Shown here piece after piece: positions 3,291 through 18,824 of a DNA stretch of 22,542 nucleotides. How positions within the stretch are numbered: position 1 is the first letter of the stretch; the number at the start of each line of letters is the position of its first letter. The position numbers and the translations under genes were made by a program. Under the pieces are notes generated by a model. That model made no database searches. It was not told the origin of the DNA and saw nothing but the letters and a program-made list of their open reading frames with translations. The DNA is from a virus (Duplodnaviria > Heunggongvirae > Uroviricota > Caudoviricetes), in the IMG/VR virus record IMGVR_UViG_3300014625_000037, positions 1-22,542 of that record; one strand, 5' to 3'.

Positions 3291-4142
3291 ATGTTTACTG
3301 TTGGTATTTACGGCTTTACTCTAACAAAGATAACTCACTTTTCATTCGGGACAATGTATCCAATAGAAACCAGTTTTTTTAAATTAAAAAAATATAGACA
3401 AGACAAGGAAAAATTATATCTTACTGCGCTCCTTGAACTTGACATCATAGACAAGAGCGAAACAGATGATATCATATTTCATCTAGAGAAAATTTTGAGT
3501 TTTATAGAACAGAGAGCAGTATTTATCAGACACCAACTAAATAATAAGACTCATAAATTTGACTTACCCATAGATTTCCCTCTCTTTATAACTCCTAATA
3601 TTAACTTATCAAGTTCAGGAGAAATCATTCTTGAAGATTGCTTTTCCAAAAACTCAAGACGCTACTTTATTGAACTTGCTATAAATAAGATCATCATTGC
3701 TAGAGATCGACCATTTACCACAATACTTCATAAAAATGTATTGGTTTTCTCTAATCCAATAAATTATCTTGATGTATCATATTACTTACTTTTTTCCGGC
3801 CTTGAGTCATTAGTTCGAGAACGTGAGAATGATTTTAAATCAAACATTACGCCAATAATGTATCGTTACCTCAAAAAGCATGGGTTTAATATAAATCAAC
3901 AAAACAATAAACATCATGACATCTCACTTGATATTTACTGTAGCTTAAGGAACGCATTATTTCACAATGGTCAATTCCAAACCATGCCGATGAAAAGAGG
4001 CTCTAAAACAATCAGTTTTGCACTAAAGGATTTTTACTCACAATTTAAACGATTAAACTGCCTCGTCATATTAAAAGAAGCAGAATTCAGCGATCATCAT
4101 ATCAACTGGAATTTTAGTGATTATAGAAACCCTTTTATATAA
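3291..4142 (+). CDS. AT-rich moron: hypothetical 283-aa protein with C-terminal HEPN-like R-x4-H motif (candidate abortive-infection/RNase-type defence protein)
   Basis: ATG at 3291 preceded by GGAG (3282-3285). Opposite strand to all flanking late genes. Strongly AT-rich codon usage (Ile/Asn/Lys/Phe rich). Motif RNALFH at residues 220-225 (nt 3948-3965). Confidence 0.6.
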   Translation: MFTVGIYGFTLTKITHFSFGTMYPIETSFFKLKKYRQDKEKLYLTALLELDIIDKSETDDIIFHLEKILSFIEQRAVFIRHQLNNKTHKFDLPIDFPLFITPNINLSSSGEIILEDCFSKNSRRYFIELAINKIIIARDRPFTTILHKNVLVFSNPINYLDVSYYLLFSGLESLVRERENDFKSNITPIMYRYLKKHGFNINQQNNKHHDISLDIYCSLRNALFHNGQFQTMPMKRGSKTISFALKDFYSQFKRLNCLVILKEAEFSDHHINWNFSDYRNPFI

Positions 4143-5360: not shown

Positions 5361-5564
5361 TCAGTCCCATAGCTGGACGGTCTGCACGGTGGTGGTTGTC
5401 GGTATGTCCGGCAGCTCCACCTGCAGCCCGTGAGGTAAAAAGGGGCCGTATTCGGCAAGCCCCGGATTTGCCTTCAGTACCTGCTCCGTGACACCCTGCG
5501 TGCGCCCGTAATGACGCCAGCAAAGCGCGTCCACCGTGTCATACTGATACGCACGCACTTTCAT
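5361..5564 (-). CDS. X: Tail protein X
   Basis: 67-aa ORF, same length as P2 gpX and similar sequence from memory (...YGRT.GV.E.VL.ANPGLAE...LPHG..VELPD...). Confidence 0.85.
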   Translation of the reverse strand: MKVRAYQYDTVDALCWRHYGRTQGVTEQVLKANPGLAEYGPFLPHGLQVELPDIPTTTTVQTVQLWD

Positions 5565-6028
5565 CAGATAAGCTCCACTGTGCAGTGCGGCGCATCCTGC
5601 ACCCGGCTGATGGCCCAGCGGGCGTCACGCCATAAATCACCGCTTGCTTCCGCCAGTTCCTCGCCCCGCTTCACACCGGATGCCGTGGCGTCATAGTCCT
5701 GATAACGCTCGTTGAGCATGGCGCGTGCCCAGCAGTAAACCGCGTTGAAATAGTGATGAATGCGCTCACTTTTGCCGTCCAGCTGTTCCGCCGGAACCTC
5801 AGCCAGCGACGCATACCCCAGCATCTGCTGACGTCTGCGAAACTCATACAACTCTGCGTTGACCTCCGAAATTGCCGACAGGGCAGCCTGCTTTAAACGC
5901 GGCTGCGTCACCGTGCCGTCAGTGCGCATGACACTGCGAAACTCCGACAGGTCCACATCAGGCCAGAACGGCGTATTTCTAATGATTTCCGCCTGTTCCG
6001 GTGCCTGTTCTGGCGCAACAAACTTCAT
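5564..6028 (-). CDS. L: Head completion/stabilisation protein L
   Basis: Track ORF is 5564..6091 with a GTG start; I prefer ATG at 6028 with AGGAG 8 nt upstream (MKFVAPEQ...). Position between M and X as in P2. Confidence 0.75.
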   Translation of the reverse strand: MKFVAPEQAPEQAEIIRNTPFWPDVDLSEFRSVMRTDGTVTQPRLKQAALSAISEVNAELYEFRRRQQMLGYASLAEVPAEQLDGKSERIHHYFNAVYCWARAMLNERYQDYDATASGVKRGEELAEASGDLWRDARWAISRVQDAPHCTVELI

Positions 6029-6123
6029 GCTGCTTTCTCCTGAAATAGAGGGCGGTGGACGGGGTTTTGATGTGGCAGTGCCTTTCGCCACCCCGTGCCG
6101 CCCGTGCGCGGGGGCACGTTCTG

Positions 6124-6774
6124 TCAGCGGCTGTCATTGCGCAGTCTGCGCTCCAGCTGCTGTTTGTCTTTTTTCACGCCACAGCGGGGATCGAGCTGTA
6201 ACGCATGGTTGAGATGATTAAGGGCGGAAGCCGGGTTGCTTTCACTCAGGACAGCGCCAATCGCTTTATGCAGACGCGCCCGTGACTGGTCCGGCATATC
6301 CAGACCGTCTGTCAGCTCCAGCGTCTGCAGCAACAGATCGGCATCAAAGCCGGTGGCGGCAAGCATTGCGCTCTGCGCCGCGTCTGCCATTTCCTCTGCC
6401 AGCACGGTCTGCACATTGCGGTTACCCAGCGGCATCACCCAGCCATGACGCAGGGCGTGATGCCCGATCTCCAGCGCCCCGGCATAATCTCCGGCATCAA
6501 TGCGCCACAGCATCACGTACATCAGCACGTCATCCTGTTGAGCGCCTCCAGCAGCCAAGACGCCCTCCGCCCAGGCGGCGTACTTCGGCAGCAGCTCCAC
6601 TTTGATTTCCGCTTTTTTGACCGTGGACTGAACGCCCTTGAGACGGCGGCGGTCTTCCGCCAGTTGCAGCAGCATCAGGTCATAGCCCGACGCGTGGCGA
6701 ACACTGCCGCCCTCGCGGGCGGCCTGTTCAGCCTGAACGCGCAGGCGATGCTGCCGTGCGGGACTCAGGCTCAT
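6124..6774 (-). CDS. M: Terminase small (endonuclease) subunit M
   Basis: 216-aa ORF downstream of N, order O-N-M-L as in P2. Confidence 0.8.
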   Translation of the reverse strand: MSLSPARQHRLRVQAEQAAREGGSVRHASGYDLMLLQLAEDRRRLKGVQSTVKKAEIKVELLPKYAAWAEGVLAAGGAQQDDVLMYVMLWRIDAGDYAGALEIGHHALRHGWVMPLGNRNVQTVLAEEMADAAQSAMLAATGFDADLLLQTLELTDGLDMPDQSRARLHKAIGAVLSESNPASALNHLNHALQLDPRCGVKKDKQQLERRLRNDSR

Positions 6775-6777
6775 GAA

Positions 6778-7836
6778 TTACGCTCCGGTTTCTGCGGCGG
6801 CGGCGCTGAAGTCGCCAATCTGGATGTTTTCCACCAGTGCGGCGCAGCGGTAGTCCTCAACCACATAGGCTTCGTTAACGGATTCAAAGTTTTCAATCCG
6901 GTCACGTTTCGGGTTGTCGATAACTGAACGGCGGCGGGTGTCTTCCTGCCAGTAGATGGACAGGTTATCCAGACGGGTGATCAGCAGTGCATTCGGCGGG
7001 AAGAATGGCGCACGCACGGCCTGCAGGCCGCCCATGCGTTTCTGACTGATGATCATATCGGCAGCCAGTTTTTCACTGTTTTCCTGCTCTTTGTTGACCA
7101 GCGGGAAATACTTGTCAGACAGCAGTTCACGACCGCAAATCACCACCAGATCGTCATCGTCCTGGTAGACCACATCGATAAGTTCATTGACAGCATCCAT
7201 CACCACGGCGTCCAGGTTAGCATATTCGCCACCTTTCCCGACTTTCACCGCACCCGGAGTGGTTTCACCGCCCGTGGTGGTGCTGCCCATGACGTGATCC
7301 GGTGCATCCTCACGGATTTTTTGCAGCCAGCCTTTGTTCACATCCTGCAGCAACGGGTTTTCACTACGGTTGGAGGTTTTCGCACGCTTCACGCCGTTAA
7401 AGCCGATCATGATGCGGTCCAGTGCCTGACGTTTCACGATGGCGTCACGGATACGCACCTGGAAATCCTGAAACTTCGCCCACAGGTCCAGCTTCGCGTA
7501 GGTCAGCACCGTGTCAAAGTTGGTCTGCTCGCATTTATATTCCACATCGACCATCAGCGTCGGATCGACAGGCTCACGCTCTTTCGCGGTGGTGTCAGTG
7601 GTTCCGGCAATGGTGCTGCCAACACCCAGCCCCAGCAACTGACCGGACTGCTCAGTCACTGGCGTGACGTTAATCAGCGTCAGGAAGGCGGCGGACTGCT
7701 GGATCTGGTCTTCCAGCGTCTGCTGCACAGACGGCTCCACAGTGAATTTGCTGGACAGTTCTTCAACTGCCACACCGTTCAGACGCGCCAGCTGCTGCAG
7801 GTAAGCGTTAAAAGCAAAGCGGGTATTCTTCTTCAT
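6778..7836 (-). CDS. N: Major capsid protein N
   Basis: 352-aa ORF, size and position match P2 gpN. Confidence 0.85.
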   Translation of the reverse strand: MKKNTRFAFNAYLQQLARLNGVAVEELSSKFTVEPSVQQTLEDQIQQSAAFLTLINVTPVTEQSGQLLGLGVGSTIAGTTDTTAKEREPVDPTLMVDVEYKCEQTNFDTVLTYAKLDLWAKFQDFQVRIRDAIVKRQALDRIMIGFNGVKRAKTSNRSENPLLQDVNKGWLQKIREDAPDHVMGSTTTGGETTPGAVKVGKGGEYANLDAVVMDAVNELIDVVYQDDDDLVVICGRELLSDKYFPLVNKEQENSEKLAADMIISQKRMGGLQAVRAPFFPPNALLITRLDNLSIYWQEDTRRRSVIDNPKRDRIENFESVNEAYVVEDYRCAALVENIQIGDFSAAAAETGA

Positions 7837-7852
7837 CGGGTTTTGTGCTCCA

Positions 7853-8686
7853 TCAGCAATTGGTCAGAGTGTCAGCGGGGGCGTTACCGCCTGTTGCACG
7901 CTGGCGGTAGTCCTGGCGGCTGTCTTCATGACTCAGCTTGTCCACCAGTTCGTTAAAGGCGGTCTGCTGTGCCTGCAGGGCAGTCTCCAGCTCAGACAGG
8001 CGTTCTTCCTGCTCAGACAGGGATTTTTCGGTGCGTGCGCTCAGGTTCTGCTGCTCAGTGGCGACCAGCTCCACGGCCTTATGCACATCAGAGAACCGGG
8101 CGTCATCGGACTGCTCTTTTTTGGTAAACAGCGCCGTGACGCGGGCAAACAGGGACGGTTTGTCGTCCTGGACTTCTTCCAGTTCGATCACCGTTTCCTC
8201 TGCAGCGGTAAAAAGATTGGCGGGATTCTGCTTGCGGTTTGCCAGCGGGTTATGGGCTGCACTGGCGCTGAATGTCAGCATTTCCGTACCCAGACTGGCG
8301 GGATCATCAGTGGCAGCCAGGCCGACCAGATAGGCTTTGCCCGTATCAGCGAACTTCGGGCTGACTTCCATAGAGGTGAATAATTTCTGGCCTTTTTTCA
8401 CCAGTTCCACCAGGGACTCCGTTGGCTCAACGTCGGCATACAGCGCCATCTTGCCTGCCAGCGGACCTTCCGTGATTTCTTCAGCAAACAGCGCCGTCAC
8501 CTTGCCGTAGCGGTTAAAGGTGCTGTCCGGCAGATAAGACTTGATGTGCTCAAGGTTAATCAGCGCGGTATACACCGCCGGGTTGTAGCTGGCTGCCATC
8601 TGTTCCAGCCATTCACGCTGGATTTCGCGTCCGTCGGTGGTGGCACCTTCCACCCCGATGCGAAAACGCTTTGCTTTCACTGTCAT
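7853..8686 (-). CDS. O: Capsid scaffolding protein O
   Basis: 277-aa ORF; N-terminus (FRIGVEG...DGR.I....) and Ala/Glu/Gln-rich coiled-coil C-terminus ending ...TNC resemble P2 gpO. Confidence 0.85.
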   Translation of the reverse strand: MTVKAKRFRIGVEGATTDGREIQREWLEQMAASYNPAVYTALINLEHIKSYLPDSTFNRYGKVTALFAEEITEGPLAGKMALYADVEPTESLVELVKKGQKLFTSMEVSPKFADTGKAYLVGLAATDDPASLGTEMLTFSASAAHNPLANRKQNPANLFTAAEETVIELEEVQDDKPSLFARVTALFTKKEQSDDARFSDVHKAVELVATEQQNLSARTEKSLSEQEERLSELETALQAQQTAFNELVDKLSHEDSRQDYRQRATGGNAPADTLTNC

Positions 8687-8828: not shown

Positions 8829-10595
8829 ATGAACACCACACTGACACCCGCAGATCTCGATCCCCGTCGGCAGGCCATGCTGCTGTACTTTCAGGGATAC
8901 CGCGTCGCCCGCATTGCTGAAATGCTGGGCGAGAAAGTTGCAACCGTTCACAGCTGGAAAAAACGCGACAAGTGGGGTGACTATGGGCCGCTGGATCAGA
9001 TGCAGCTCACCACCGCCGCACGCTACTGCCAGCTCATTATGAAGGAGCACAAAGAAGGGAAAGATTTCAAAGAGATTGACCTGCTGGCGCGCCAGTCGGA
9101 GCGCCACGCGCGGATCGGCAAGTTTAACAATGGCGGCAACGAAGCCGACTTAAACCCTAACGTCGCCAACCGCAACAAAGGCCCACGCCGTCAGCCGGAA
9201 AAGAATGTTTTCACCGATGAGCAGATTGAGAAGCTGGAAGAAATCTTCCATTCCTCCATGTTCAACTACCAGCGCCACTGGTGGGAAGCCGGAAAAACCA
9301 ACCGCATCCGCAACCTGCTGAAGTCACGCCAGATCGGCGCGACCTTTTACTTTGCCCGTGAAGCCCTGATTGACGCTCTGCTTACCGGACGTAACCAGAT
9401 TTTCCTTTCTGCCAGTAAGGCACAGGCCCACGTCTTCAAACAGTACATCATCGACTTTGCCAAAGAAGTGGAGGTGGAGCTGAAAGGCGATCCGATGGTG
9501 CTTCCCAACGGGGCCACACTGTATTTCCTCGGAACCAATGCCCGCACGGCCCAGAGTTACCACGGCAACCTGTATCTGGATGAATATTTCTGGATACCGA
9601 AATTCCAGGAGCTGCGCAAAGTGGCTTCCGGTATGGCTATTCACAAAAAATGGCGACAAACCTATTTTTCCACGCCATCCAGCCTGACCCACAGTGCTTA
9701 TCCGTTCTGGTCCGGTGCGCTGTTCAACCGTGGACGCAACAAAGCTGACAAGGTGGACATCGACCTGTCCCACAGCAATCTGGCCCCCGGCCTGCTGTGC
9801 GCAGACGGGCAATACCGCCAGATAGTCACCGTGGAAGATGCGGTGCGCGGCGGCTGTAACCTGTTCGACCTCGACCAGCTACGCATGGAGTACAGCCCGG
9901 ACGAATACCAGAACCTGCTGATGTGCGAGTTCGTGGACGATCTCGCGTCCGTGTTCCCGCTCAGCGAACTGCAGGCGTGCATGGTGGACAGTTGGGAAGT
10001 CTGGACCGACTTTCATGCACTGGCCCTGCGCCCGTTTGGCTGGCGCGAGGTGTGGATCGGTTATGACCCGGCAAAAGGTACGCAGAACGGCGACAGCGCC
10101 GGATGCGTGGTGGTGGCACCGCCAGCCGTGCCAGGCGGTAAGTTTCGCATTCTTGAGCGTCACCAGTGGCGCGGGATGGACTTCCGCGCCCAGGCGGACG
10201 CCATCAAAAAACTGACCGAACAGTACAACGTGACCTATATCGGCATCGACTCGACAGGTGTCGGTCACGGGGTTTACGAGAACGTGAAAGCGTTTTTTCC
10301 AGCCGTCCGGGAGTTTGTCTACAACCCCAACGTTAAAAACGCCCTGGTACTCAAGGCCTACGACATTATCAGCCACCGCCGTCTGGAGTTTGACGCCGGA
10401 CACACCGACATAGCGCAGTCATTTATGGCAATCCGTCGCGCCACCACCGCCAGCGGCAACCGCCCGACCTATGAAGCCAGCCGCAGCGAAGAAGCCAGCC
10501 ACGCCGATCTGGCCTGGGCAACGATGCACGCTCTGTTTAACGAACCGCTGCAGGGCGAATCCGCCAATACCAGCAATATTGTGGAGATTTTTTGA
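8829..10595 (+). CDS. P: Terminase large (ATPase) subunit P
   Basis: 588-aa ORF; strong resemblance to P2 gpP along its length as I recall it (RRQAMLLYFQG...NPNVANRNKGPRRQPE...SRQIGATFYFAREAL...SEE.SHADLAWATMHAL). Confidence 0.9.
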   Translation: MNTTLTPADLDPRRQAMLLYFQGYRVARIAEMLGEKVATVHSWKKRDKWGDYGPLDQMQLTTAARYCQLIMKEHKEGKDFKEIDLLARQSERHARIGKFNNGGNEADLNPNVANRNKGPRRQPEKNVFTDEQIEKLEEIFHSSMFNYQRHWWEAGKTNRIRNLLKSRQIGATFYFAREALIDALLTGRNQIFLSASKAQAHVFKQYIIDFAKEVEVELKGDPMVLPNGATLYFLGTNARTAQSYHGNLYLDEYFWIPKFQELRKVASGMAIHKKWRQTYFSTPSSLTHSAYPFWSGALFNRGRNKADKVDIDLSHSNLAPGLLCADGQYRQIVTVEDAVRGGCNLFDLDQLRMEYSPDEYQNLLMCEFVDDLASVFPLSELQACMVDSWEVWTDFHALALRPFGWREVWIGYDPAKGTQNGDSAGCVVVAPPAVPGGKFRILERHQWRGMDFRAQADAIKKLTEQYNVTYIGIDSTGVGHGVYENVKAFFPAVREFVYNPNVKNALVLKAYDIISHRRLEFDAGHTDIAQSFMAIRRATTASGNRPTYEASRSEEASHADLAWATMHALFNEPLQGESANTSNIVEIF

Positions 10596-11617
10596 TGAAA
10601 GAACATATCGCGCCAGACGAAACCGTAACTGCAGAAGAAACTAAAAAATCCGTTGCGGAGGCTTTCAGCTTTGGTGATCCCATTCCTGTACTGGACCGCC
10701 GCGAACTGCTGGACTATGTGGAATGCGTACAGATGGATCGCTGGTATGAGCCGCCCGTCAGCTTTGACGGACTGGCGCGCACCTTCCGCGCCGCCGTGCA
10801 CCACAGCTCCCCGATCAGTGTTAAGCGTGACATTATCAGCAGTACCTATATTCCACATCGCCTTCTCAGCCAGCAGGCATTTACCCGTTTTGTGCAGGAC
10901 TATCTGGTTTTTGGTAACGCCTACCTGGAGAAACGCACGAACCGCTTTGGTGAAGTTATTTCGCTGGAACCTGCACTGGCAAAATACACCCGGCGCGGAC
11001 TTGACCTTGAAACATACTGGTTTGTGCAATACAGCCTGACGACACAGCCGTATCAGTTCACAAAAGGTAATGTCTTCCACCTGATGGAGCCGGATATCAA
11101 CCAGGAGATTTATGGTCTGCCGGGTTACCTTTCTGCCATTCCGTCAGCTCTGCTCAACGAATCCGCCACGCTGTTCCGCCGCAAGTATTACATCAACGGC
11201 AGTCATGCAGGCTTCATCATGTACATGACCGACGCCGCGCAGAACCAGGAGGATGTAAACAACCTCCGTAACGCGATGAAAAGCGCCAAAGGTCCAGGCA
11301 ACTTCCGTAATCTGTTTATGTACTCGCCTAACGGCAAAAAAGACGGGCTTCAGATTATCCCGTTATCAGAAGTCGCAGCGAAGGATGAGTTTCTGAATAT
11401 CAAGAACGTGAGCCGGGACGACATGATGGCAGCACACCGAGTGCCGCCGCAAATGATGGGGATTATGCCGAATAATGTTGGTGGATTTGGGGATGTGGAG
11501 AAAGCGAGTAAAGTTTTTGTGAGAAATGAACTGATCCCGCTGCAGAAGAGATTATTCGAGATAAATGTATGGCTAGGAGAAAATGTCATTACTTTCCAGC
11601 CATACAACTTAGATTAA
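10595..11617 (+). CDS. Q: Portal protein Q
   Basis: Track ORF starts at TTG 10592; ATG at 10595 overlaps the P stop (ATGA). About 340 aa as in P2 gpQ. Divergent from O as in P2. Confidence 0.85.
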   Translation: MKEHIAPDETVTAEETKKSVAEAFSFGDPIPVLDRRELLDYVECVQMDRWYEPPVSFDGLARTFRAAVHHSSPISVKRDIISSTYIPHRLLSQQAFTRFVQDYLVFGNAYLEKRTNRFGEVISLEPALAKYTRRGLDLETYWFVQYSLTTQPYQFTKGNVFHLMEPDINQEIYGLPGYLSAIPSALLNESATLFRRKYYINGSHAGFIMYMTDAAQNQEDVNNLRNAMKSAKGPGNFRNLFMYSPNGKKDGLQIIPLSEVAAKDEFLNIKNVSRDDMMAAHRVPPQMMGIMPNNVGGFGDVEKASKVFVRNELIPLQKRLFEINVWLGENVITFQPYNLD

Positions 11618-11622
11618 TACTA

Positions 11623-11652
11623 TTACAGACACTTTCGTGAAAGTGTCTGTAA
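11623..11652. terminator. Perfect 13-bp stem / 4-nt loop hairpin between the convergent portal and RelA/SpoT-like genes (probable bidirectional terminator)
   Basis: ttacagacacttt-cgtg-aaagtgtctgtaa read directly; 5 nt after the Q stop and 14 nt after the RelA/SpoT-like gene stop. Confidence 0.5.
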
Positions 11653-11665
11653 TCAAAAAATGAAA

Positions 11666-12670
11666 TTATTCTTCTGAATCATCATAAACATCCATTCCTT
11701 CGGTCTGATTTCTAATATAAGAAGCCCCCATAGAATTAGCAATCGCAGTCCGAATTAACCCTACATGAGTGAAAAACACCCCTAACCTAGCACGCTTTAA
11801 CTCAGACTCATCATCATAGTCATCTTCATTACTTATAATTCTTCTAACCATTGCCTTATCTTCGTCAATAGCCGAAGGTAGCCCACTCTTTAAAGCGTCA
11901 ATACACTCACCTACAGTTATAATTTTATTTTTAATTAATTCAGAAAGCAAATCATCATAATTTTCATCATCAGATTTATTATCAGGTGGTAATTCACTTG
12001 CAGCTATCATTTTCAGCAATTCTACGTCAAGCATAGTTCCTCTATCTAGTCTGCTTGTCTCAACATACCCCTCACGCTCTGATAACACTCTTTCAAATTC
12101 GAAATCAACGACTTCAAGCAAAGCAGATACTCTATTAATTGCTCGCCTAAGAGGAAGTGGAACACTTTGCTCTTTTTTGTATTGCAGTTTATGAGATGCT
12201 GCAGCCCAAATATGCTGAGAAAGCGTTCGTATTTGCACCTCCACTTTCATATTTTTAAAATCACTAAAGGATGGAACTCTTAGCCATTCTTCTGGAGGTT
12301 GTATTACATAATGATGAGATTGGTACCCAAATCTATCCTCATCCAGTTCATCAAGTTTATTCTCTTGCTTCAAAATAATGAAATGTTCTTTCAGACAAGA
12401 TATAACCTTTTCAACATCTCGCTTAAATAGCATTATTAATCGGATTCCAACATAATCATCCAAGTCAACTATTGACTCAATCTTTAGAGGTTTTCGGTTA
12501 TCCTTATTAATAATAGAACTTAATGTTTTGACACGGCTTTCAATTGGAACCCCTAAAGACAATTTATTCTCCGACAAAATAACATCAATTTGCTCAACCA
12601 TAACTCGTCTGAACAATTCCGCAACTGAGCCGTAAATTGAATGCTGTTCTTTTAATTCTTCGTCTGTCAT
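11666..12670 (-). CDS. RelA/SpoT-domain nucleotidyltransferase, 334 aa (candidate fused toxSAS/CapRel-like defence protein or small alarmone synthetase)
   Basis: ATG at 12670 with AGGTAAGA upstream. Synthetase-domain motifs RVKTLSS (46-52), DYVGIRL (72-78), GYQSHH (115-120), EVQIRTLSQHIWAAASH (144-160). C-terminal ~150 aa acidic domain without obvious motif. AT-rich. No adjacent small ORF. Confidence 0.75.
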   Translation of the reverse strand: MTDEELKEQHSIYGSVAELFRRVMVEQIDVILSENKLSLGVPIESRVKTLSSIINKDNRKPLKIESIVDLDDYVGIRLIMLFKRDVEKVISCLKEHFIILKQENKLDELDEDRFGYQSHHYVIQPPEEWLRVPSFSDFKNMKVEVQIRTLSQHIWAAASHKLQYKKEQSVPLPLRRAINRVSALLEVVDFEFERVLSEREGYVETSRLDRGTMLDVELLKMIAASELPPDNKSDDENYDDLLSELIKNKIITVGECIDALKSGLPSAIDEDKAMVRRIISNEDDYDDESELKRARLGVFFTHVGLIRTAIANSMGASYIRNQTEGMDVYDDSEE

Positions 12671-12787
12671 CTATCTTACCTAACTTATATAAATGAATCA
12701 GATATAAAACATTGCATAATTTTAATTCAAGTGGACAACATATAAATTATCCGATCTAAACCACTTAAACAACAGGTTTTGCGCGCG

Positions 12788-12806
12788 CTCGTATCCCCGC
12801 CACGCC
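12788..12806. other. Candidate cos (cohesive end) site
   Basis: Minus-strand reading GGCGTGGCGGGGATACGAG shares its first 13 nt with the 186/P2 cohesive-end sequence as I remember it (GGCGTGGCGGGGAAAGCAT); a short inverted repeat cccgcc/ggcggg lies nearby at 12857-12874. Confidence 0.4.
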
Positions 12807-12966
12807 TGCCCGCTTTATGTAGCGGTTTTCATGCGCCTGCATGACATAAGCAAAATCCCGCCACTCCTGGCGGGCCTCAGCTAAAACGATCCTCAAACGA
12901 TCATGCGGATTCATGCGGCATAGACATGCACAATCTCCAAAGCGAGCATCGAGACTTTTTGGAAAC

Positions 12967-13578
12967 CTACGTAACCACAGTTAATGTGTGCATCCTGTCT
13001 CGAATTGCATCACACGTCTCATCAAAAAGCTTGATGATGGTTGTATGGTTCAACTCCGCCTCTTTCCAATAATTTTGCCCGTCAAATTCTGGATCGCTAT
13101 GCTTAAACGATATTGACTCTGAAAGGCATTCCTTCCGGAAACGGTCCAAGATTATATAAACCTCTGGTGAGATGAACGGTTTGTTAGATTCAACACTTGT
13201 AACAAAAGTGTTAAATGCATCAGAAAAAACTTTCAACCTTCTAAATTTTCTCTCTTCAAATGGTTCGTTGGGGTCAACATGATCCAGCGCAGGCCTCAGC
13301 TTAAGCACGCTTTCTCTGGTTTCAAACATCGAATTCCAAATGAGACTATATGCTGATAACTCCTTATCAAAATACGCTTTCGTTACATAAACAGAATTGT
13401 CTAACTTAGCCTTTATTCTTTCATTAGTTGCACTCAGTTGTGATTGAAATTCAGCAATATCTTTGTTTAGCCGCGACTTATATCTTTCTAAATAAACTTT
13501 CCCGATCCAAACAAATATGCCAGATGCAACAAAAGACACCCCACCCAACGAAGCCAGAACTTTAAAGACTAAATCCAT
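12967..13578 (-). CDS. Hypothetical membrane-anchored protein, 203 aa (single N-terminal TM helix)
   Basis: ATG at 13578; N-terminal hydrophobic segment VLASLGGVSFVASGIFVWIG followed by a ~170-aa soluble domain; AT-rich; sits beside cos at the position P2 uses for old/tin. Confidence 0.65.
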   Translation of the reverse strand: MDLVFKVLASLGGVSFVASGIFVWIGKVYLERYKSRLNKDIAEFQSQLSATNERIKAKLDNSVYVTKAYFDKELSAYSLIWNSMFETRESVLKLRPALDHVDPNEPFEERKFRRLKVFSDAFNTFVTSVESNKPFISPEVYIILDRFRKECLSESISFKHSDPEFDGQNYWKEAELNHTTIIKLFDETCDAIRDRMHTLTVVT

Positions 13579-13626
13579 TGCGCCCCCACCTGCAAAAATA
13601 GTATTCCATTATAAGCTAATACATTT

Positions 13627-13842
13627 TTAATCAAACAGGGGATAATTCGCGTCAACCTCATCACTTCTCTGCTCTACCCTAGTGACTTCCATCAAAAACC
13701 CCAGGCCGTCATATAGCGAAACGGGGAATTCCAGCTCAAGCCAGAAGCAGTCTTCATAGATGCGGCCCAACCAAAAACCTCCGCCACACTCCTTTGGGCG
13801 TTGAAAGAAGACCCAGTCGCCAAGGGTTAAACGTTCCAGCAC
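13627..13842 (-). CDS. Questionable 71-aa ORF (GTG start)
   Basis: Only a GTG start; no convincing RBS found; could be a gene remnant. Confidence 0.2.
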   Translation of the reverse strand: MLERLTLGDWVFFQRPKECGGGFWLGRIYEDCFWLELEFPVSLYDGLGFLMEVTRVEQRSDEVDANYPLFD

Positions 13843-13960
13843 CTAGCCCCGATAAATAATCTGGTGATTACTGTCTTTTTTACCCATGGCTAACGCCTCG
13901 CTACTCTCGTTGTTCAACCTTGCTGACGTCAGATTCAAGTTCTTACATCAGGAACGTTCC

Positions 13961-14194
13961 TTAGTGCAGCCAGCTGTCGTCTTCCCAAACCTGTTGCATA
14001 ATTTCCATCACCCGCTTTTTGTCTTCATCAAGCTTTAAGCCACTCAGCTCAACGCCGTTTGCCGACCCTTTACGGATGCGGATAGCGGTCTTGGGATAGA
14101 TGGGTTGCAGGTTGCGGTAAAGCTCGGACTCCAGAGCGTCCAGGGTAGACTGGCTAATCTTCTGCTCTTTATCGATCATTATTTCAATGCGCAT
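13961..14194 (-). CDS. DinI-like protein
   Basis: Preferred start MRIEIMID... at ATG 14194 with GAGGTGA upstream; 77 aa; N-terminus and C-terminal ...EIMQQVWEDDSW resemble E. coli DinI (MRIEVTIAK...ILQETWESADDW) from memory. Confidence 0.75.
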   Translation of the reverse strand: MRIEIMIDKEQKISQSTLDALESELYRNLQPIYPKTAIRIRKGSANGVELSGLKLDEDKKRVMEIMQQVWEDDSWLH

Positions 14195-14204
14195 AAAAGT
14201 CACC

Positions 14205-14393
14205 TCAGCTGATGACATCCATTGAGCGGTTGTATTCGTGGCTTCTGATTTTTGCCATGAGTTCATCAGTCAATTCAGAAACCCACTGCAGGGCCAGCCC
14301 CTTCTCTTCATCACTACACTCACTAGCCGCTACAAGCTTAAGAAAAAAATCAATGCGCTGGAGCTTCAAAGACTCCAAAAAATAGTCCTGCAT
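14205..14393 (-). CDS. Small hypothetical protein (62 aa), first gene of SOS-regulated operon; possible antirepressor
   Basis: ATG at 14393 preceded by TAGGAGGAAAG; the longer track ORF (to 14495) would place the LexA box inside the coding sequence, so it is rejected. Confidence 0.55.
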   Translation of the reverse strand: MQDYFLESLKLQRIDFFLKLVAASECSDEEKGLALQWVSELTDELMAKIRSHEYNRSMDVIS

Positions 14394-14434
14394 CTTTCCT
14401 CCTATGACACCGCAAACAATACTGTATAGATAAC

Positions 14435-14454
14435 CACTGTTTATATTTACAGTA
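14435..14454. promoter_or_regulatory. LexA (SOS) box
   Basis: cACTGTttatatttACAGTa read directly; matches consensus TACTGT-N8-ACAGTA (CTGT-N8-ACAG). Lies 42-61 nt upstream of the small ORF start on the transcribed strand, overlapping candidate -10 TATACT. Confidence 0.7.
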
Positions 14455-14546
14455 TATGATAATCTTACTGATGTAAAACGTTTTTTTACGTTCATCAGCC
14501 TGATATGCCTGGTATTATTAAGAGCACGAATTGTTAACCCGCGTAA

Positions 14547-16919
14547 TTAATACAGGTTCCGCCACTTATCATCTTCCTGCAAACGCTGGTTCCGATAGAA
14601 GACACGCAGGCCTGCTCCTGACGGAATACTGCCGCCGCGAAGGAGTAAATCGACCTCTTTCTCGCTGCCATCAAATCCTCTGGACTTCAGTTCATAGACG
14701 AGCTGCTGTCGTTGATGGTCTGTAATTCGCTGTTTGTAGTCTCTACGCCGTTTCGGTTTCACCAGGCGTAACCTTGCAGCCAGTTCCCGGCGCTCTTTTT
14801 TGTTCATACTGTGCAGGTAATCGTGCAACTCCTTGTCATCCATGTGGGTAATGTCCGTTCTGGTATCCCCATCAGCTGATTTGTCTTTCCCTTGTTGGTT
14901 CAAATTTTCAGCAAGGGGACAGTTATTGCCACGAGTCCAAGGGGCGCAAGCGCCCTGGTCGGCTGCCGCCTCCTGAACATCAACGGCCTTACGAACCATT
15001 TTCCACTTCACGGCATGAGTGCAGATCTTGCCCTCTGCAATAGGTGACCAGATGCCATAAATACGAATGCCGTGATCGCCATAGGCGGTCGGCTCTTCGT
15101 TGATTTCATAAGCGGTTCTGATGAGGTGATATTTGCGGGGAACCAGTACGCCGCCCTGCTTCATGATGTAGGTGGCAAAACAACCAGCATCAGCAGCAGC
15201 CAGGATGGCATCAAGGCGTGGGTTATCCAGTACCGGCGCACCTGCTTTTTTGTCCCCCTGTTGCCTTGCCGCCTGACCAGCCAGCAATCGCAGTTCACGG
15301 TAAGCCTGACGCCCCGGAATGCCAAAGAAACGGAATTGCTGAACACGATGCAGAGACGCCCAGGCATTAACGTATTCAGCATTATCACGCAGGGATTTCC
15401 CCGTTTCCTTGCTGATCTCGCCAGCCAGACCACGCCCGTCAATGTTCTTACTGATGTATTTCGCGATGTAGCTTGTTGGCGTTCCTTTGCGCGGGTTAAT
15501 CAACTCAGACTTAAAGCGCGGCCCAGTGTTATTGCCCAGCTCCTCGCGGTCTTCACGGATGGCAAACTTACGCAGTAATGCAGTGATGGCACGGCGGTCT
15601 TTTTTGCGCATGAAACACAACAGGTGCCAGTGAACTGTGCCGTCATGATGCGGCTCAGCCACCCGCACGCCATACCAGCGCAACCCGGCTTTGTGCATCG
15701 CCTTACGAAATGCAGCAAACATGCCGACCAGATAATCGCTGCTTTGTCTTACCGTCGCGTTTGTCCAGGTCGGGTTTGGTCTGCCGTTATTGAGCGTGGA
15801 ATGGAAACGTGACGGACAGGTGATGGTGTAGAAAACGGCGCAGTCACCGCGCATTTCCGCGATAAGCTCCAGACCTTTAACACAGGCCATCATCTCATTG
15901 CGGCGATGCGCCGGGTTGCTGCTGCTGGCGTTTACCACATCCTCCATGTCCAGCGTGTCGCCGTCTTCGTTCACCAGTTCATGAGAACGGAAAAACTCCA
16001 GCGACTTACGGCGCTGCTCACGTTTATGCATCACGGCTTCATAGCTGACATAGGGAGATGCTTTTTTGCTGACCAGGCAGACAGCACGCAACTGCTCTTC
16101 CCGCCATTCGCAACGCATCTTCCATAATTTCCGGTACCACCAGTCAGCGCACAACATACGCGCCAGCGAACCCGGAATGAGTTCATAGGGCACGGGTTTA
16201 CGGCGGTTTCTTTTCCGGCGGAGTTGCTCAAACGCAGGCGGGATGACATCCAGACGCAGGGTTTCCGCTGCCACCTTTTCCCATGTCTTGCGGATTTCTT
16301 CTGGCTTAACGTCATCGGTGACATACAAATCGCCACAAGCTGCATCAAGGCACATGCTCATATGCGCAGCTACCAGGGTGGACAGGCGTTTCACCTGATC
16401 CTGACTCATTTCAGGCAGGATCAGCAGGCCGTCCAGCCCTTCATGGCTTGCCATAAAGCGAAAAGAAGTGGATAGCTGACAGTCGCGTACATGCTCCAGC
16501 CGTTCCAGACATGGCTTAATCGTCTCACGCAAATAGCGGGAATAAGCCTTTGGCCTGCCCAGGCTGCTGAAGTATTCAATACGTTGCATCAGCGGCTTGC
16601 TGATATGGGAAGGCTGGGCATTGACGTCCGCCAGAATGACCATATCTGGATTAAAACGCTGCTGCTCATGCGCCAGCTTTGCCCGACTAATGAGCTTATC
16701 CTGCTCCATTTCGCGCTGGACAGGATCACGGGATTCATTAAAGAAATAACGCTCCCAGACCTGATCACTCAGTGCCTCGCGGCGCAGCTGTTCCTGCTCG
16801 TTATCGGCAGCGTACAGAGCGATCAGGTTTGAAAGCGCAGAAACTGAAGATTGCTCTTCTGTCTCTACGTAAGGATTGATTGCTTTTTTCTCAGCATTCC
16901 AGGAATAGCTGTAGTTCAT
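14547..16919 (-). CDS. A: Replication initiation protein A (rolling-circle nickase)
   Basis: Track ORF has a TTG start at 16970; ATG at 16919 (MNYSYSW...) overlaps the upstream stop (TAATG). About 790 aa, size and position as P2/186 gene A. Confidence 0.85.
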
Positions 16920-17749
16920 TACGCAATCTCCAGTTCGAGCTGTGAAGGCTGCAAACCATTCGACAGCCAATCAGAAACTGAAGGTGGGCGAACAGCTTCA
17001 ATTGCACCTTTTAAAATTGCGCAACGGTTTTTCAGAATGACAGCTTTCAGCTCCTTTTCCGTCAGATTGCGCGAATACTCAGCCTCCTGAATAGCCCGCG
17101 TCAGCTCAGGATATTTGCTATTAAATTTGGGGACATTGCAGGCAAGATTTGTACTGTCGGCAGTCGCCAGTGGGTAATTTCCCAACACACGACCGTCAAG
17201 CATGCGCAAACCATGAACAGCTGTTTTGAAATTGTGTCGGCAATAAATTGCTTCAAAAGCGTCCTGCATACGATGATGCCAGTGCGCAGTTCTGATAGCC
17301 GCATATTCACCAGACGATCCAAAGCAGACACGAGGCCATTCACGACATAGCTCGATAAGCCGATCGATTGACTCGTGCAGATGCCAGACGGGAGTTGCCT
17401 TCCCGTAGAACATTTTCGGAACTTCGTTTATCAGGGCATCATTGTCACGTTCACCTCCGTCCACAACATCAGGAATGACAAAAAAAGCGACCTTAGGATG
17501 GTGGTAATAGTTCAGGAGCCATTTATAAAAATCACTCCAGTTAATTTTTAGCCCACGCACCCATGCAGAAAATGCGCCGTTATCAATGCCGACGACCTGA
17601 GCGTGCTGAATGGACGCCGCAATCTGATCTGGTCGTACATAGGAGACGAAAGCGCCAGCTCCGCTCACCGCAATACGATGAACGTCGCCAGCACTTCCCC
17701 AGACAGGCGTCCCATGGAAATGATGAATTCCGTGGTGCATTTCTTTCAC
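16919..17749 (-). CDS. Hypothetical early protein, 276 aa, translationally coupled between Dam and A
   Basis: GTG at 17749 overlapping the Dam stop, or ATG at 17740; His-rich N-terminus; no family recognised with confidence. Confidence 0.6.
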
Positions 17750-18600
17750 ACTTGCACCCCGAAAATAACAGTAGAGTCACGTCCTCTACTAAAATCGGCA
17801 CTAAACCAATTAGCAGATTTAGTGGCAATCATCTCTGTTGCAAATTTTCCCTCCCCCGCTGCAACGCCGATGCTGCGTTTCGCCCTGATGTAGTGGTGAG
17901 TGAAATTACGATAAAGGGACCGGGTCAAAGACGTGTTACTGTTAGAAACAATGACCGGATGTCCTTCTGATGACCGATGTTCAAGAATGGATGCCAGGTG
18001 ATACTGATCATCTTCAGTGAAACCATCAGTGTGATAGCCGGAAAACGTACCGTCATAAGGCGGATCGCAATACACCACATCCCCCACCTTCAACATCGCC
18101 AGCGTTTCATCAAAGCTGGCGCAGATAAACGTTGCCCGCTGGGCTTTCTCTGCAAATGCGCGAATTTCTTTTTCAGGGAAATACGGATTTTTATAATTAC
18201 CGTAGGGAATGTTGAAATGCCCGCTCTTGTTATAGCGACATAAACCACGGTAACCGTGACGATTGAGATACAGGAAATATACCGCTTTCATGAAATCAGT
18301 AATTTCAGTGGAGTAATTAAACTCCTGCCTTATGTTGTAATAAGCCACCTCCCTGTTTGCTTCCTCAAATAAAGCTCTGGCACGAGATATAAACGCCTCA
18401 CAATCAGCAGCAACCTTTTTATAGAGGTTGATTAAATCAGGATTAATATCCGCAACAAGATAGCTGGGATAATCCGTCTCCATCATCACTGCACAGGAAC
18501 CCGCGAAAGGTTCAACCAGTCGCGGGCCAGCAGGAAGATGCTTTTTCAGTTCGGACATTATGGCGGTTTTATTTCCTGCCCATTTCAGGATGGTGCTCAT
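17746..18600 (-). CDS. dam: DNA adenine (N6) methyltransferase, Dam-like
   Basis: Start ATG 18600 ([11 protein letters not shown]...) overlapping the upstream stop (ATGA). Motifs KWAGNK, EPFAGS (SAM-binding FxGxG) and DPPY (catalytic motif IV). Confidence 0.85.
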
Positions 18601-18824
18601 ACAGCACCTCCGTTGTAATGTTTGCCTTTCAGCTCTGCGATTTCCTGACAGGTAATGCAAAGCTGCACACCCGGAATGGCACGGCGGCGTGCTGGCGGAA
18701 TTGGCGCTTCACACTCAACGCAAAGCACGCGGGACACGCCCGGCGTTTTGGCACGGGCAGCACGGATATGGCGTTGGCGTTCTTCTTCAACGCGCTGCTG
18801 TACGAGATCCATTGCATCAGCCAT
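18597..18824 (-). CDS. TraR/DksA-family C4 zinc-finger protein
   Basis: 75 aa with CxxC-x17-CxxC (CVECEAP...CITCQ). Confidence 0.75.
   Translation of the reverse strand: MADAMDLVQQRVEEERQRHIRAARAKTPGVSRVLCVECEAPIPPARRRAIPGVQLCITCQEIAELKGKHYNGGAV

What the first reader, a model, noticed from the sequence alone, without database searches (positions are those of the whole stretch)
12671..12966. Probable cos site flanked on both sides by cargo genes
The reverse-strand reading GGCGTGGCGGGGATACGAG at 12788-12806 matches the first 13 nt of the 186/P2-type cohesive end as I remember it, inside a GC-rich island with short inverted repeats, between two AT-rich accessory genes. If correct, the RelA/SpoT-like gene lies at the left genome end and the membrane protein at the right end of the packaged DNA.
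Basis: partly seen in the sequence, partly recalled or inferred. Interest (0 to 1): 0.4.

Follow-up and report, generated by a model that had tools for sequence, protein, structure and literature searches.

The report
P2-type phage cos site, confirmed
The flagged sequence is almost certainly the DNA-packaging cut site (cos) of a P2/Fels-2-like prophage, sitting as expected between the portal and replication genes with swappable accessory genes on each side, an arrangement already described for this phage family.

Summary
Observation confirmed and interpretation supported, but the feature is ordinary. GGCGTGGCGGGGATACGAG lies on the minus strand at 12788-12806. Anchored on the annotated cohesive ends of 186 and P2, it aligns without gaps exactly onto their 19-nt cos (15/19 and 14/19 identical, first 13 identical to 186), with the same flanks. 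It lies between portal gpQ and replication gene gpA, as in P2.

In 131 related prophages the 19-mer is nearly invariant. It sits in a 151-bp conserved core (12781-12931) with sharp edges: 7 bp on the Q side and 125 bp on the gpA side. Four GCAT boxes stand at -123, -110, -100 and -28 from the cut in the window, SEN8, 186 and satellite P4 (P2's first is at -122).

DNA on both sides of the core is variable: 69 of 120 loci carry cargo on both sides, and left and right cargo assort independently. The same 19-mer is already published as the cos of Salmonella phage SEN8 and annotated as putative cos in Escherichia phage Cartapus. The gpA-gpQ cos-proximal region is the known P2 cargo and defence hotspot (Rousset 2022), whose tables list this RelA_SpoT protein family.

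No DNA-end mapping exists for this variant, so the exact cut positions are inferred. Novelty: already known. Interest: low.

The parts
12788..12806 (-). 19-nt cohesive-end sequence GGCGTGGCGGGGATACGAG (equivalent of cosN). Inferred nicks: on the minus strand between 12807 and 12806, on the plus strand between 12787 and 12788. This would leave 5' overhangs of 19 nt.
   Evidence: Aligns without gaps onto the annotated cos of 186, P2 and P4. Nearly invariant in 131 related loci. Printed as the cos of phage SEN8 and lies inside the 'putative cos' feature of Cartapus. Nick positions are inferred from the 186 record note 'top strand cut at 5' end and bottom strand cut at 3' end'.
12781..12787 (.). 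Conserved GCGCGCG flank on the portal (left-arm) side of the cohesive end. Conservation stops here.
   Evidence: 83-100% conserved across 125 unique sequences, falling to 36% or less from 12780 downward. (C/T)GCGCGC also follows the 19-mer in P2, 186, P4, SEN8 and Cartapus.
12807..12931 (-). 125-bp conserved right-arm part of cos; presumed terminase recognition region. It holds four GCAT boxes at -28 (12831-12834), -100 (12903-12906), -110 (12913-12916) and -123 (12926-12929), and the motif AAAACCG...GGGCA next to the cut.
   Evidence: Conservation profile with a sharp edge at 12931/12932. GCAT boxes stand at the same offsets in the window, SEN8, 186 and P4, with P2's first box at -122, although the sequence between them has diverged. 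BLAST matches from 85 phage records cover 12779-12933 only. Binding by terminase is inferred, not shown.
12857..12874 (-). Palindrome CCCGCCA-GGAG-TGGCGGG followed by ATTTTG on the minus strand. Terminator-like for transcripts coming from the gpA/DinI/cargo side, or a symmetric protein site inside cos.
   Evidence: The arms are conserved while the 4-nt loop varies and occurs as both gaac and gttc. 186 and P4 have an inverted repeat at the same place.
11618..12780 (-). Left cargo slot between the portal gene and cos. It holds a single RelA_SpoT (small alarmone synthetase-like) gene at 11666-12670, a promoter-like site at 12719-12746 and an AT-rich hairpin at 11621-11651.
   Evidence: Pfam RelA_SpoT; PDB matches to YjbM/YwaC; PADLOC candidate PDC-S33. 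The Q-to-cos distance is about 185 bp in relatives without cargo and 1174 bp here. The same cassette occurs with a different right-hand neighbour in E. coli C2 and in L088.
12932..13889 (-). Right cargo slot between cos and the DinI/gpA block. It holds a 203-aa N-terminally anchored protein (12967-13578) and a 71-aa ORF (13627-13842).
   Evidence: L088 is 98.7% identical to the window up to 12935, unrelated from 12936 to 13889, and similar again from 13890. The same right cassette occurs in Cartapus and in many E. coli genomes with other left cargo. phrog_26391 and phrog_2100, both of unknown function.
10592..11617 (+). Portal gene gpQ, the core gene bounding the left slot.
   Evidence: Pfam Phage_portal; 63% identical to P2 Q and 61% to the 186 homologue.
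8829..10595 (+). Terminase large (ATPase) subunit gpP, the enzyme expected to act at this cos.
   Evidence: Pfam Terminase_6N, Terminase_6C and Terminase_5. 99.8% identical to Cartapus TermL, 63% to P2 and 186.
6124..6774 (-). Terminase small (endonuclease) subunit gpM.
   Evidence: Pfam Phage_term_smal PF05944, E=3.3e-40. 98.1% identical to Cartapus, 48.6% to P2 and 186.
13961..16970 (-). DinI-like gene (13961-14266) and replication gene gpA (14547-16970), the core genes bounding the right slot.
   Evidence: Pfam DinI and Phage_GPA. The cos-to-DinI distance is 207-208 bp in most relatives without right-hand cargo and 1158 bp here.

Best explanation
Window 12781-12931 is the cos site of a P2-family prophage of the Fels-2/Elveevirus type, which lies in the window in reverse orientation. 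After replication the phage terminase (gpM at 6124-6774 plus gpP at 8829-10595) would recognise the 125-bp right-arm part with its four phased GCAT boxes. It would then nick the two strands 19 nt apart, minus strand at 12807|12806 and plus strand at 12787|12788. The linear virion DNA would carry 5' overhangs GGCGTGGCGGGGATACGAG and its complement. The RelA_SpoT gene would be the first gene at the left end and the 203-aa gene the last at the right end.

On each side of the conserved core is a slot where non-essential cargo is exchanged between related phages. This is the known gpA-gpQ cos-proximal hotspot.

Shown here: sequence homology in exact register with annotated cos sites, genomic position, conservation, cargo variability, and an intact cognate terminase. 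Inferred: the nick positions, terminase binding to the GCAT boxes, and that this particular prophage still packages DNA.
For: (1) An ungapped alignment anchored on the annotated ends of 186, P2 and P4 puts the 19-mer exactly on their cos, with shared flanks AAAACCG..GGGC(A/G) and (C/T)GCGCGC.
(2) GCAT boxes at -123 (-122 in P2), -110, -100 and -28 are shared by all five sequences.
(3) The site lies between gpQ and DinI/gpA, next to the genes P, O, N, M and L.
(4) In 131 loci from many Enterobacterales the 19-mer is almost invariant and always 19 nt long. The conserved core is 151 bp with sharp edges.
(5) gpP and gpM are full length. They are 99.8% and 98.1% identical to those of Cartapus, which has the same 19-mer and yields DNase-protected genomes in LF82 culture supernatants (PMC9928086).
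(6) The same 19-mer is published as the cos of SEN8 (PMC5427200) and lies inside the annotated putative cos of Cartapus.
(7) The cargo nature of both flanks: 69 of 120 loci have both slots filled, 32 left only, 11 right only, 8 neither. There are 84 left and 55 right cargo clusters; 20 locus pairs share left cargo, 80 share right cargo and only 2 share both. No complete E. coli genome holds both halves together.
(8) Literature: the gpA-gpQ cos-proximal hotspot (PMC9122126), and cosL-to-Q as a known site for foreign genes (PMC5694545, citing Dodd and Egan 1996 and Nakayama 1999).
Against: No physical mapping of DNA ends exists for any phage with the ...ATACGAG variant. The SEN8 and Cartapus features are 'putative', made by annotation or homology. 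Positions 14, 16, 17 and 19 differ from 186 and P2, and the terminase subunits are only 63% and 49% identical to theirs, so identical nick positions are assumed rather than shown. The window does not prove that the prophage is complete or inducible. Cartapus virions were never seen by electron microscopy and no propagation host was found.
Confidence: 0.9

Rival explanations
1. It is a true cos by descent but is no longer used. The prophage would be defective, and the site and its cargo are simply inherited with the chromosome.
For: The window shows only part of a prophage, and nothing here shows induction. A close relative in E. coli C2 has a frameshifted replication gene. Cartapus is produced only at very low levels.
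Against: In the window gpM, gpP, gpQ, gpN, gpO, gpL and gpA are all full-length ORFs with full-length family matches. The core shows no decay relative to 125 unique relatives.
Confidence: 0.08
2. It is the cos region, but in this lineage the terminase cuts at other positions or with a different stagger than in P2 and 186. The overhang would then not be exactly these 19 nt.
For: The 3' third of the 19-mer differs from P2 and 186, and gpM is only about 49% identical. No ends have been determined for this variant.
Against: Both conserved flanks keep exactly 19 nt between them in all 131 loci, and no length variants were seen. All four GCAT box offsets relative to the P2, 186 and P4 cut sites are preserved. 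A more distant P2-like phage, Ralstonia phage RSA1, is reported to have single-stranded extrusions described as 19 bases at the homologous place (PMC5694545).
Confidence: 0.07
3. The resemblance to cos is a chance match in a GC-rich intergenic region whose real role is transcriptional (terminators between convergent or tandem cargo genes).
For: The 13-mer search alone is weak, since 9 of 100 shuffles give a hit. Two terminator-like hairpins lie in the core.
Against: The match is in register with flanks and GCAT boxes over about 150 bp in five independent phages and satellites. It is at the syntenic position. A core conserved while the genes on both sides change does not fit cargo-linked terminators.
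Confidence: 0.01

Closest known systems
cos of coliphage 186 and Salmonella phage PSP3 (Eganvirus), GGCGTGGCGGGGAAAGCAT
   Same: The first 13 nt are identical and 15 of 19 overall. Shared features are the left flank GCGCGC, the right flank AAAACCG..GGGCA, GCAT boxes at -123, -110, -100 and -28, an inverted repeat near -60, and a position between the portal gene and the right arm.
   Different: Positions 14, 16, 17 and 19 differ. The terminase subunits are 63% and 49% identical. 186 has no gene between cos and the portal gene (168 bp up to terminator tW), whereas here there is a 1.16-kb cargo cassette.
cos of P2 and of its satellite P4, GGCGAGGCGGGGAAAGCAC, with the 55-bp core of Ziermann and Calendar 1990 (as cited in PMC5694545 and PMC3931495)
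   Same: The same 19-nt register (14/19 identical), the same flanks and the same GCAT box layout. Cargo lies on the right-arm side in P2 (old, tin) and next to cos in P4 (gop, beta, cII).
   Different: Position 5 is A rather than T, and the 3' third differs. P2 has no cargo on the Q side.
Putative cos of Salmonella phage SEN8 (KT630647, PMC5427200) and Escherichia phage Cartapus (OV696611), and the Fels-2 group in general
   Same: An identical 19-mer and a near-identical 151-bp core. Both phages also have cargo genes on both sides of cos: SEN8_1, SEN8_2 and SEN8_49; CARTA_1 and CARTA_47. Cartapus carries the same 203-aa right-hand gene as the window at 97.5% nucleotide identity.
   Different: Only the left-hand cargo differs: DUF4145 in Cartapus, a hypothetical protein plus an HNH endonuclease in SEN8, RelA_SpoT here.
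P2 gpA-gpQ cos-proximal hotspot of accessory and anti-phage genes (Rousset et al. 2022, PMC9122126; de Sousa et al. 2026, PMC13586616)
   Same: The same locus and the same behaviour: unrelated gene sets in closely related phages. The RelA_SpoT protein family (WP_021556031) appears in their Table S5A as 'hypothetical + DinI + RelA_SpoT'.
   Different: Those papers treat the interval as one hotspot. Here it resolves into two slots separated by the 151-bp cos core, and their contents assort independently. This refines the description and is not a new kind of feature.

Membership tests
P2/186-type cos site | A G+C-rich 19-nt sequence homologous to, and in register with, the determined cohesive ends of P2, 186 and P4 | tested here: met
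   15/19 identical to 186 and 14/19 to P2 and P4, in an ungapped alignment anchored on the record-annotated ends.
P2/186-type cos site | The conserved core around the cohesive end (the 55-bp core of Ziermann and Calendar 1990): AAAACCG..GGGC(A/G) before it and (C/T)GCGCGC after it | tested here: met
   Both flanks are present and 83-100% conserved in 125 unique relatives. The 55-bp figure comes from PMC5694545 and PMC3931495; the original paper was not available to me.
P2/186-type cos site | Location between the portal gene (Q) and the end of the right arm (gpA side) | tested here: met
   gpQ at 10592-11617, cos at 12788-12806, DinI at 13961-14266, gpA at 14547-16970.
P2/186-type cos site | A cognate P2-type terminase (gpM-like small/endonuclease subunit and gpP-like ATPase) encoded by the same element | tested here: met
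   PF05944 for 6124-6774; PF03237, PF17289 and PF06056 for 8829-10595. Both are full length.
P2/186-type cos site | Extended right-arm recognition region with phased repeats. This feature is defined by my own comparison, not taken from the literature. | tested here: met
   GCAT at -123 (-122 in P2), -110, -100 and -28 in the window, SEN8, 186, P2 and P4.
P2/186-type cos site | Cleavage by terminase that gives 19-nt 5' single-stranded ends in virion DNA | not testable with these tools
   This needs virion DNA. No published end mapping for the ATACGAG variant was found.
P2 gpA-gpQ cos-proximal cargo/defence hotspot | Gene content between gpA and gpQ differs among otherwise closely related phages | tested here: met
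   84 left and 55 right cargo clusters in 120 loci. L088 shares the backbone and left cargo at 98.7% but has a different right cargo. E. coli genomes share one half or the other, never both.
P2 gpA-gpQ cos-proximal cargo/defence hotspot | The cargo has anti-phage or another host-benefit function | not tested
   Only hints exist. The RelA_SpoT protein matches the PADLOC candidate model PDC-S33 (E=1.8e-16, synthetase domain only). The 203-aa protein matches nothing in PADLOC. Neither has been assayed.

The most novel reading that the evidence does not exclude
The 'single' gpA-gpQ hotspot of P2-like phages is really two independently exchanging cargo slots, separated by a 151-bp cos core that tolerates replacement up to 7 bp from the cohesive end on the portal side. 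[quoted passage not shown] The two-slot structure and independent assortment are shown descriptively here. The cos-driven exchange mechanism is speculation.
Probability: 0.2. Interest if true: 0.4.

Novelty: already known. Interest (0 to 1): 0.12.

Why it matters
For annotation, this fixes the ends of the packaged genome of this prophage and separates the core packaging signal (12781-12931) from two accessory-gene cassettes. It assigns the RelA_SpoT gene and the 203-aa gene to the known cos-proximal hotspot of P2-like phages, where anti-phage genes are common. The comparison also acts as a natural deletion analysis: everything beyond 7 bp on the portal side and beyond 125 bp on the gpA side of the cohesive end can be replaced. 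That is useful for anyone designing cos plasmids or phagemids for this phage group. None of this changes current understanding.

Tried and rejected
(1) An Rfam scan of the whole window found nothing, so no known structured RNA explains the conserved core.

(2) A single-sequence AlphaFold model of the RelA_SpoT protein was too poor to use (mean pLDDT 43.6). No fold search was run, so I make no claim that the C-terminal half is a CapRel-like fused antitoxin. A PDB sequence search matched only small alarmone synthetases (YjbM, YwaC) over residues 43-209.

(3) I looked for P4-like satellites carrying this cos variant. None of 118 viral contigs with the exact 30-mer encodes psu, sid or alpha homologues. 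That collection is a poor sample of satellites, so this says little.

(4) I searched for experimental end mapping of the ATACGAG variant and for open-access descriptions of P2 terminase and cos mechanics. Only 'putative' or annotation-based cos calls turned up. Ziermann and Calendar 1990 and Christie and Calendar 2016 are not held.

(5) The hairpin next to the cut (12810-12825) is terminator-like on the plus strand, but in most relatives only 4 of its 5 pairs form and there is no compensatory pattern. I therefore do not count it as a structural element.

(6) The weak Pfam hit of the 203-aa protein to Val_tRNA-synt_C (E=0.009, below the cut-off) was rejected as a coiled-coil artefact.

Full report
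**What is in the sequence**

The minus strand of 12788-12806 reads GGCGTGGCGGGGATACGAG.
- a 334-aa protein with a RelA_SpoT domain (11666-12670; Pfam E=7.6e-20);
- a 203-aa protein (12967-13578) with one strongly hydrophobic N-terminal segment.

The gap is not uniform in composition:
- 12671-12780 is 25.5% GC;
- 12781-12931 is 57.6% GC;
- the two genes are 35.6% and 38.6% GC;
- the phage backbone genes are 53-54% GC.

The 13-mer GGCGWGGCGGGGA, allowing one mismatch, occurs once in the window against 0.10 expected, and 9 of 100 shuffles give a hit. On its own that count is only suggestive.

**Context**

The window is a P2-family prophage lying in reverse orientation. The genes found are:
- gpL, gpM (small terminase, PF05944), gpN (P2 capsid) and gpO (scaffold) on the minus strand at 5564-8686;
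- gpP (large terminase) at 8829-10595 and gpQ (portal) at 10592-11617 on the plus strand;
- a DinI-like gene at 13961-14266, gpA at 14547-16970 and a D12-class Dam-type methylase at 17746-18660, all on the minus strand.

In P2 and 186 the cohesive ends lie exactly between Q and the end of the right arm. The candidate is therefore at the syntenic place.

**Test against known cos sites**

The RefSeq records of P2, 186, PSP3 and P4 start at the cohesive end, and those of P2, 186 and PSP3 annotate it as such. I joined right and left ends and compared them with the reverse complement of the window, with no gaps, anchored on the cut. The window 19-mer lands exactly on theirs. It is 15/19 identical to 186 (the first 13 identical) and 14/19 to P2 and P4.

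On the right-arm side all share AAAACCG, a variable stretch, then GGGC(A/G). On the left-arm side all share (C/T)GCGCGC.

A GCAT motif stands at -123, -110, -100 and -28 from the top-strand cut in the window, SEN8, 186 and P4; in P2 the first box is at -122. The sequence between the boxes has largely diverged. In the window the boxes are at 12926-12929, 12913-12916, 12903-12906 and 12831-12834. An inverted repeat near -60 (window 12857-12874) also recurs in 186 and P4. This settles homology; chance is not a live option.

**Conservation in relatives**

Using the portal protein I fetched 160 related loci from bacterial genomes and viral contigs. In 131 of them, counting the window itself, the cos 13-mer lies downstream of Q.
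- The full 19-mer is nearly invariant among those with a portal at least 80% identical. The only common variation is at position 13.
- It is always 19 nt between the two conserved flanks.
- A MAFFT alignment of 125 unique sequences shows a conserved block from 12781 to 12931 with abrupt edges. It covers 7 bp on the Q side, the 19-mer, and 125 bp on the gpA side. Identity to the window drops from mostly above 80% (many positions above 95%) to below 40-50% within two or three bases at each edge.

**Both flanks are cargo slots**

- The distance from Q to cos ranges from 161 to 3525 bp. It is mostly 180-190 bp when the slot is empty, similar to the 168-177 bp in P2 and 186.
- The distance from cos to DinI ranges from 135 to 4511 bp and is 207-208 bp in most relatives when the slot is empty.
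- Of 120 loci with complete context, 69 have both slots filled, 32 only the left, 11 only the right and 8 neither.
- Clustering the slot contents gives 84 left and 55 right cargo types. Twenty locus pairs share left cargo, 80 share right cargo and only 2 share both.
- For the window specifically, E. coli C2 and three other complete genomes share Q-end, RelA_SpoT and the cos core (11600-12931) at 98-99%, with nothing between cos and DinI in C2. Many others share the cos core plus right cargo (12779-13900) at 99.6-100%. None of 5,426 complete genomes has both.
- Viral contig L088 matches the window at 98.7% up to 12935, is unrelated from 12936 to 13889, and matches again from 13890.
- On the Q side the cassette replaced the whole ancestral spacer, including its terminator and the last codons of Q.

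**Prior description**

- The SEN8 genome announcement prints ggcgtggcggggatacgag as the cos site (PMC5427200). Its record annotates positions 1-19 as 'putative cos site' and shows cargo on both sides.
- The Cartapus record annotates 1-59 as 'putative cos site, homologous to the cos of P2 phage'. The 19-mer is at positions 33-51. A DUF4145 gene lies between cos and the portal gene, and the same 203-aa gene as in the window lies at the right end.
- Rousset et al. 2022 describe the cos-proximal gpA-gpQ interval of P2-like phages as a hotspot, with 1,650 gene arrangements in 18,150 loci (PMC9122126).
- Their Table S5A lists 'hypothetical + DinI + RelA_SpoT' with WP_021556031. That is the protein annotated on the E. 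coli C2 cassette, which is 99% identical in DNA to the window's.
- PMC5694545 notes that the cosL-to-Q position was proposed as a site for foreign genes by Dodd and Egan (1996) and Nakayama et al. (1999).
- PMC13586616 confirms and extends the hotspot picture.

**How it most likely works**

From my own knowledge of P2 biology, not checked against a paper here: P2 terminase (gpM plus gpP) cuts cos on monomeric circles and packages the DNA into procapsids. That P2 virion DNA carries 19-nt 5' extruding cohesive ends is stated in PMC3931495, which cites Padmanabhan, Wu and Calendar 1974.

The 186 record states that the top strand is cut at the 5' end and the bottom strand at the 3' end of the 19-mer. 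Transferred to the window, the nicks are at 12807|12806 on the minus strand and 12787|12788 on the plus strand.

The strong asymmetry of conservation (125 bp against 7 bp) and the phased GCAT boxes suggest that terminase recognition lies on the right-arm side, as cosB does for lambda. This is inference.

The window's gpP and gpM are 99.8% and 98.1% identical to those of Cartapus. Cartapus DNA is found DNase-protected in LF82 supernatants at about 3e5 genomes per mL (PMC9928086). This terminase and cos pair is therefore probably active, though no virions were seen and no ends were mapped. Compared with P2 and 186 the terminase is 63% and 49% identical, and the last third of the 19-mer differs. 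That fits a lineage-specific enzyme and site pair (inference).

**What remains open**

The physical ends have not been determined for this variant, and the window cannot show that this prophage is inducible. The functions of the two cargo genes are unknown.
- The RelA_SpoT protein resembles small alarmone synthetases over residues 43-209 and has an acidic 130-residue tail.
- It matches only a PADLOC candidate model, PDC-S33, and PHROGs of unknown function.
- A single-sequence structure model was unusable.

**Verdict**

The only small addition is the resolution of the known hotspot into two independently assorting slots around a sharply bounded 151-bp core.

Noticed in passing
window 11666-12670 (-): Single-gene left cargo: a 334-aa RelA_SpoT protein resembling small alarmone synthetases (YjbM/YwaC, residues 43-209), with an acidic C-terminal 134 residues (30 D+E against 15 K+R). 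It matches the PADLOC candidate PDC-S33 and phrog_9640. No neighbouring antitoxin-like gene is present in the slot. The same family (WP_021556031) is listed in Rousset 2022 Table S5A. It could be a stand-alone or fused toxSAS-type defence gene, but this is untested.
   Followed up: partly
window 12967-13578 (-): The 203-aa right-hand cargo protein (phrog_26391, one N-terminal hydrophobic helix) is named 'valyl-tRNA synthetase' in many RefSeq E. coli genomes. This probably comes from a sub-threshold coiled-coil match (Pfam Val_tRNA-synt_C, E=0.009, 16.7 bits against a cut-off of 25.9) and is likely a propagated misannotation.
   Followed up: partly
window 12857-12874: In the palindrome CCCGCCA-NNNN-TGGCGGG inside the cos core, the 4-nt loop occurs as gaac in most relatives and as its reverse complement gttc in many others. 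The element therefore exists in both loop orientations while the arms stay fixed.
   Followed up: partly
window 11600-11665: The left cargo cassette replaced the ancestral Q-cos spacer, including the usual GC-rich terminator and the last codons of the portal gene. In its place is an AT-rich perfect 13-bp hairpin (TTACAGACACTTT cgtg AAAGTGTCTGTAA, 11621-11651) between the convergent portal and RelA_SpoT genes.
   Followed up: partly
L238 (IMGVR_UViG_3300011853_000021) 3441-3470 and 6699-6728: A 16.3-kb metagenomic viral contig carries two copies of the cos 30-mer in opposite orientation, 3.2 kb apart. This could be an assembly chimera or an unusual rearrangement.
   Followed up: no
window 17746-18660 (-): A D12-class N6-adenine DNA methyltransferase (Dam-like) gene lies upstream of gpA in the early operon, as in SEN8.
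   Followed up: no
window 12796-12808 and 12857-12869: Part of the cohesive-end sequence is repeated 61 bp away inside the core: CCCGCCACGCCTG and CCCGCCACTCCTG, 12 of 13 identical. The second copy forms the left arm of the palindrome.
   Followed up: no
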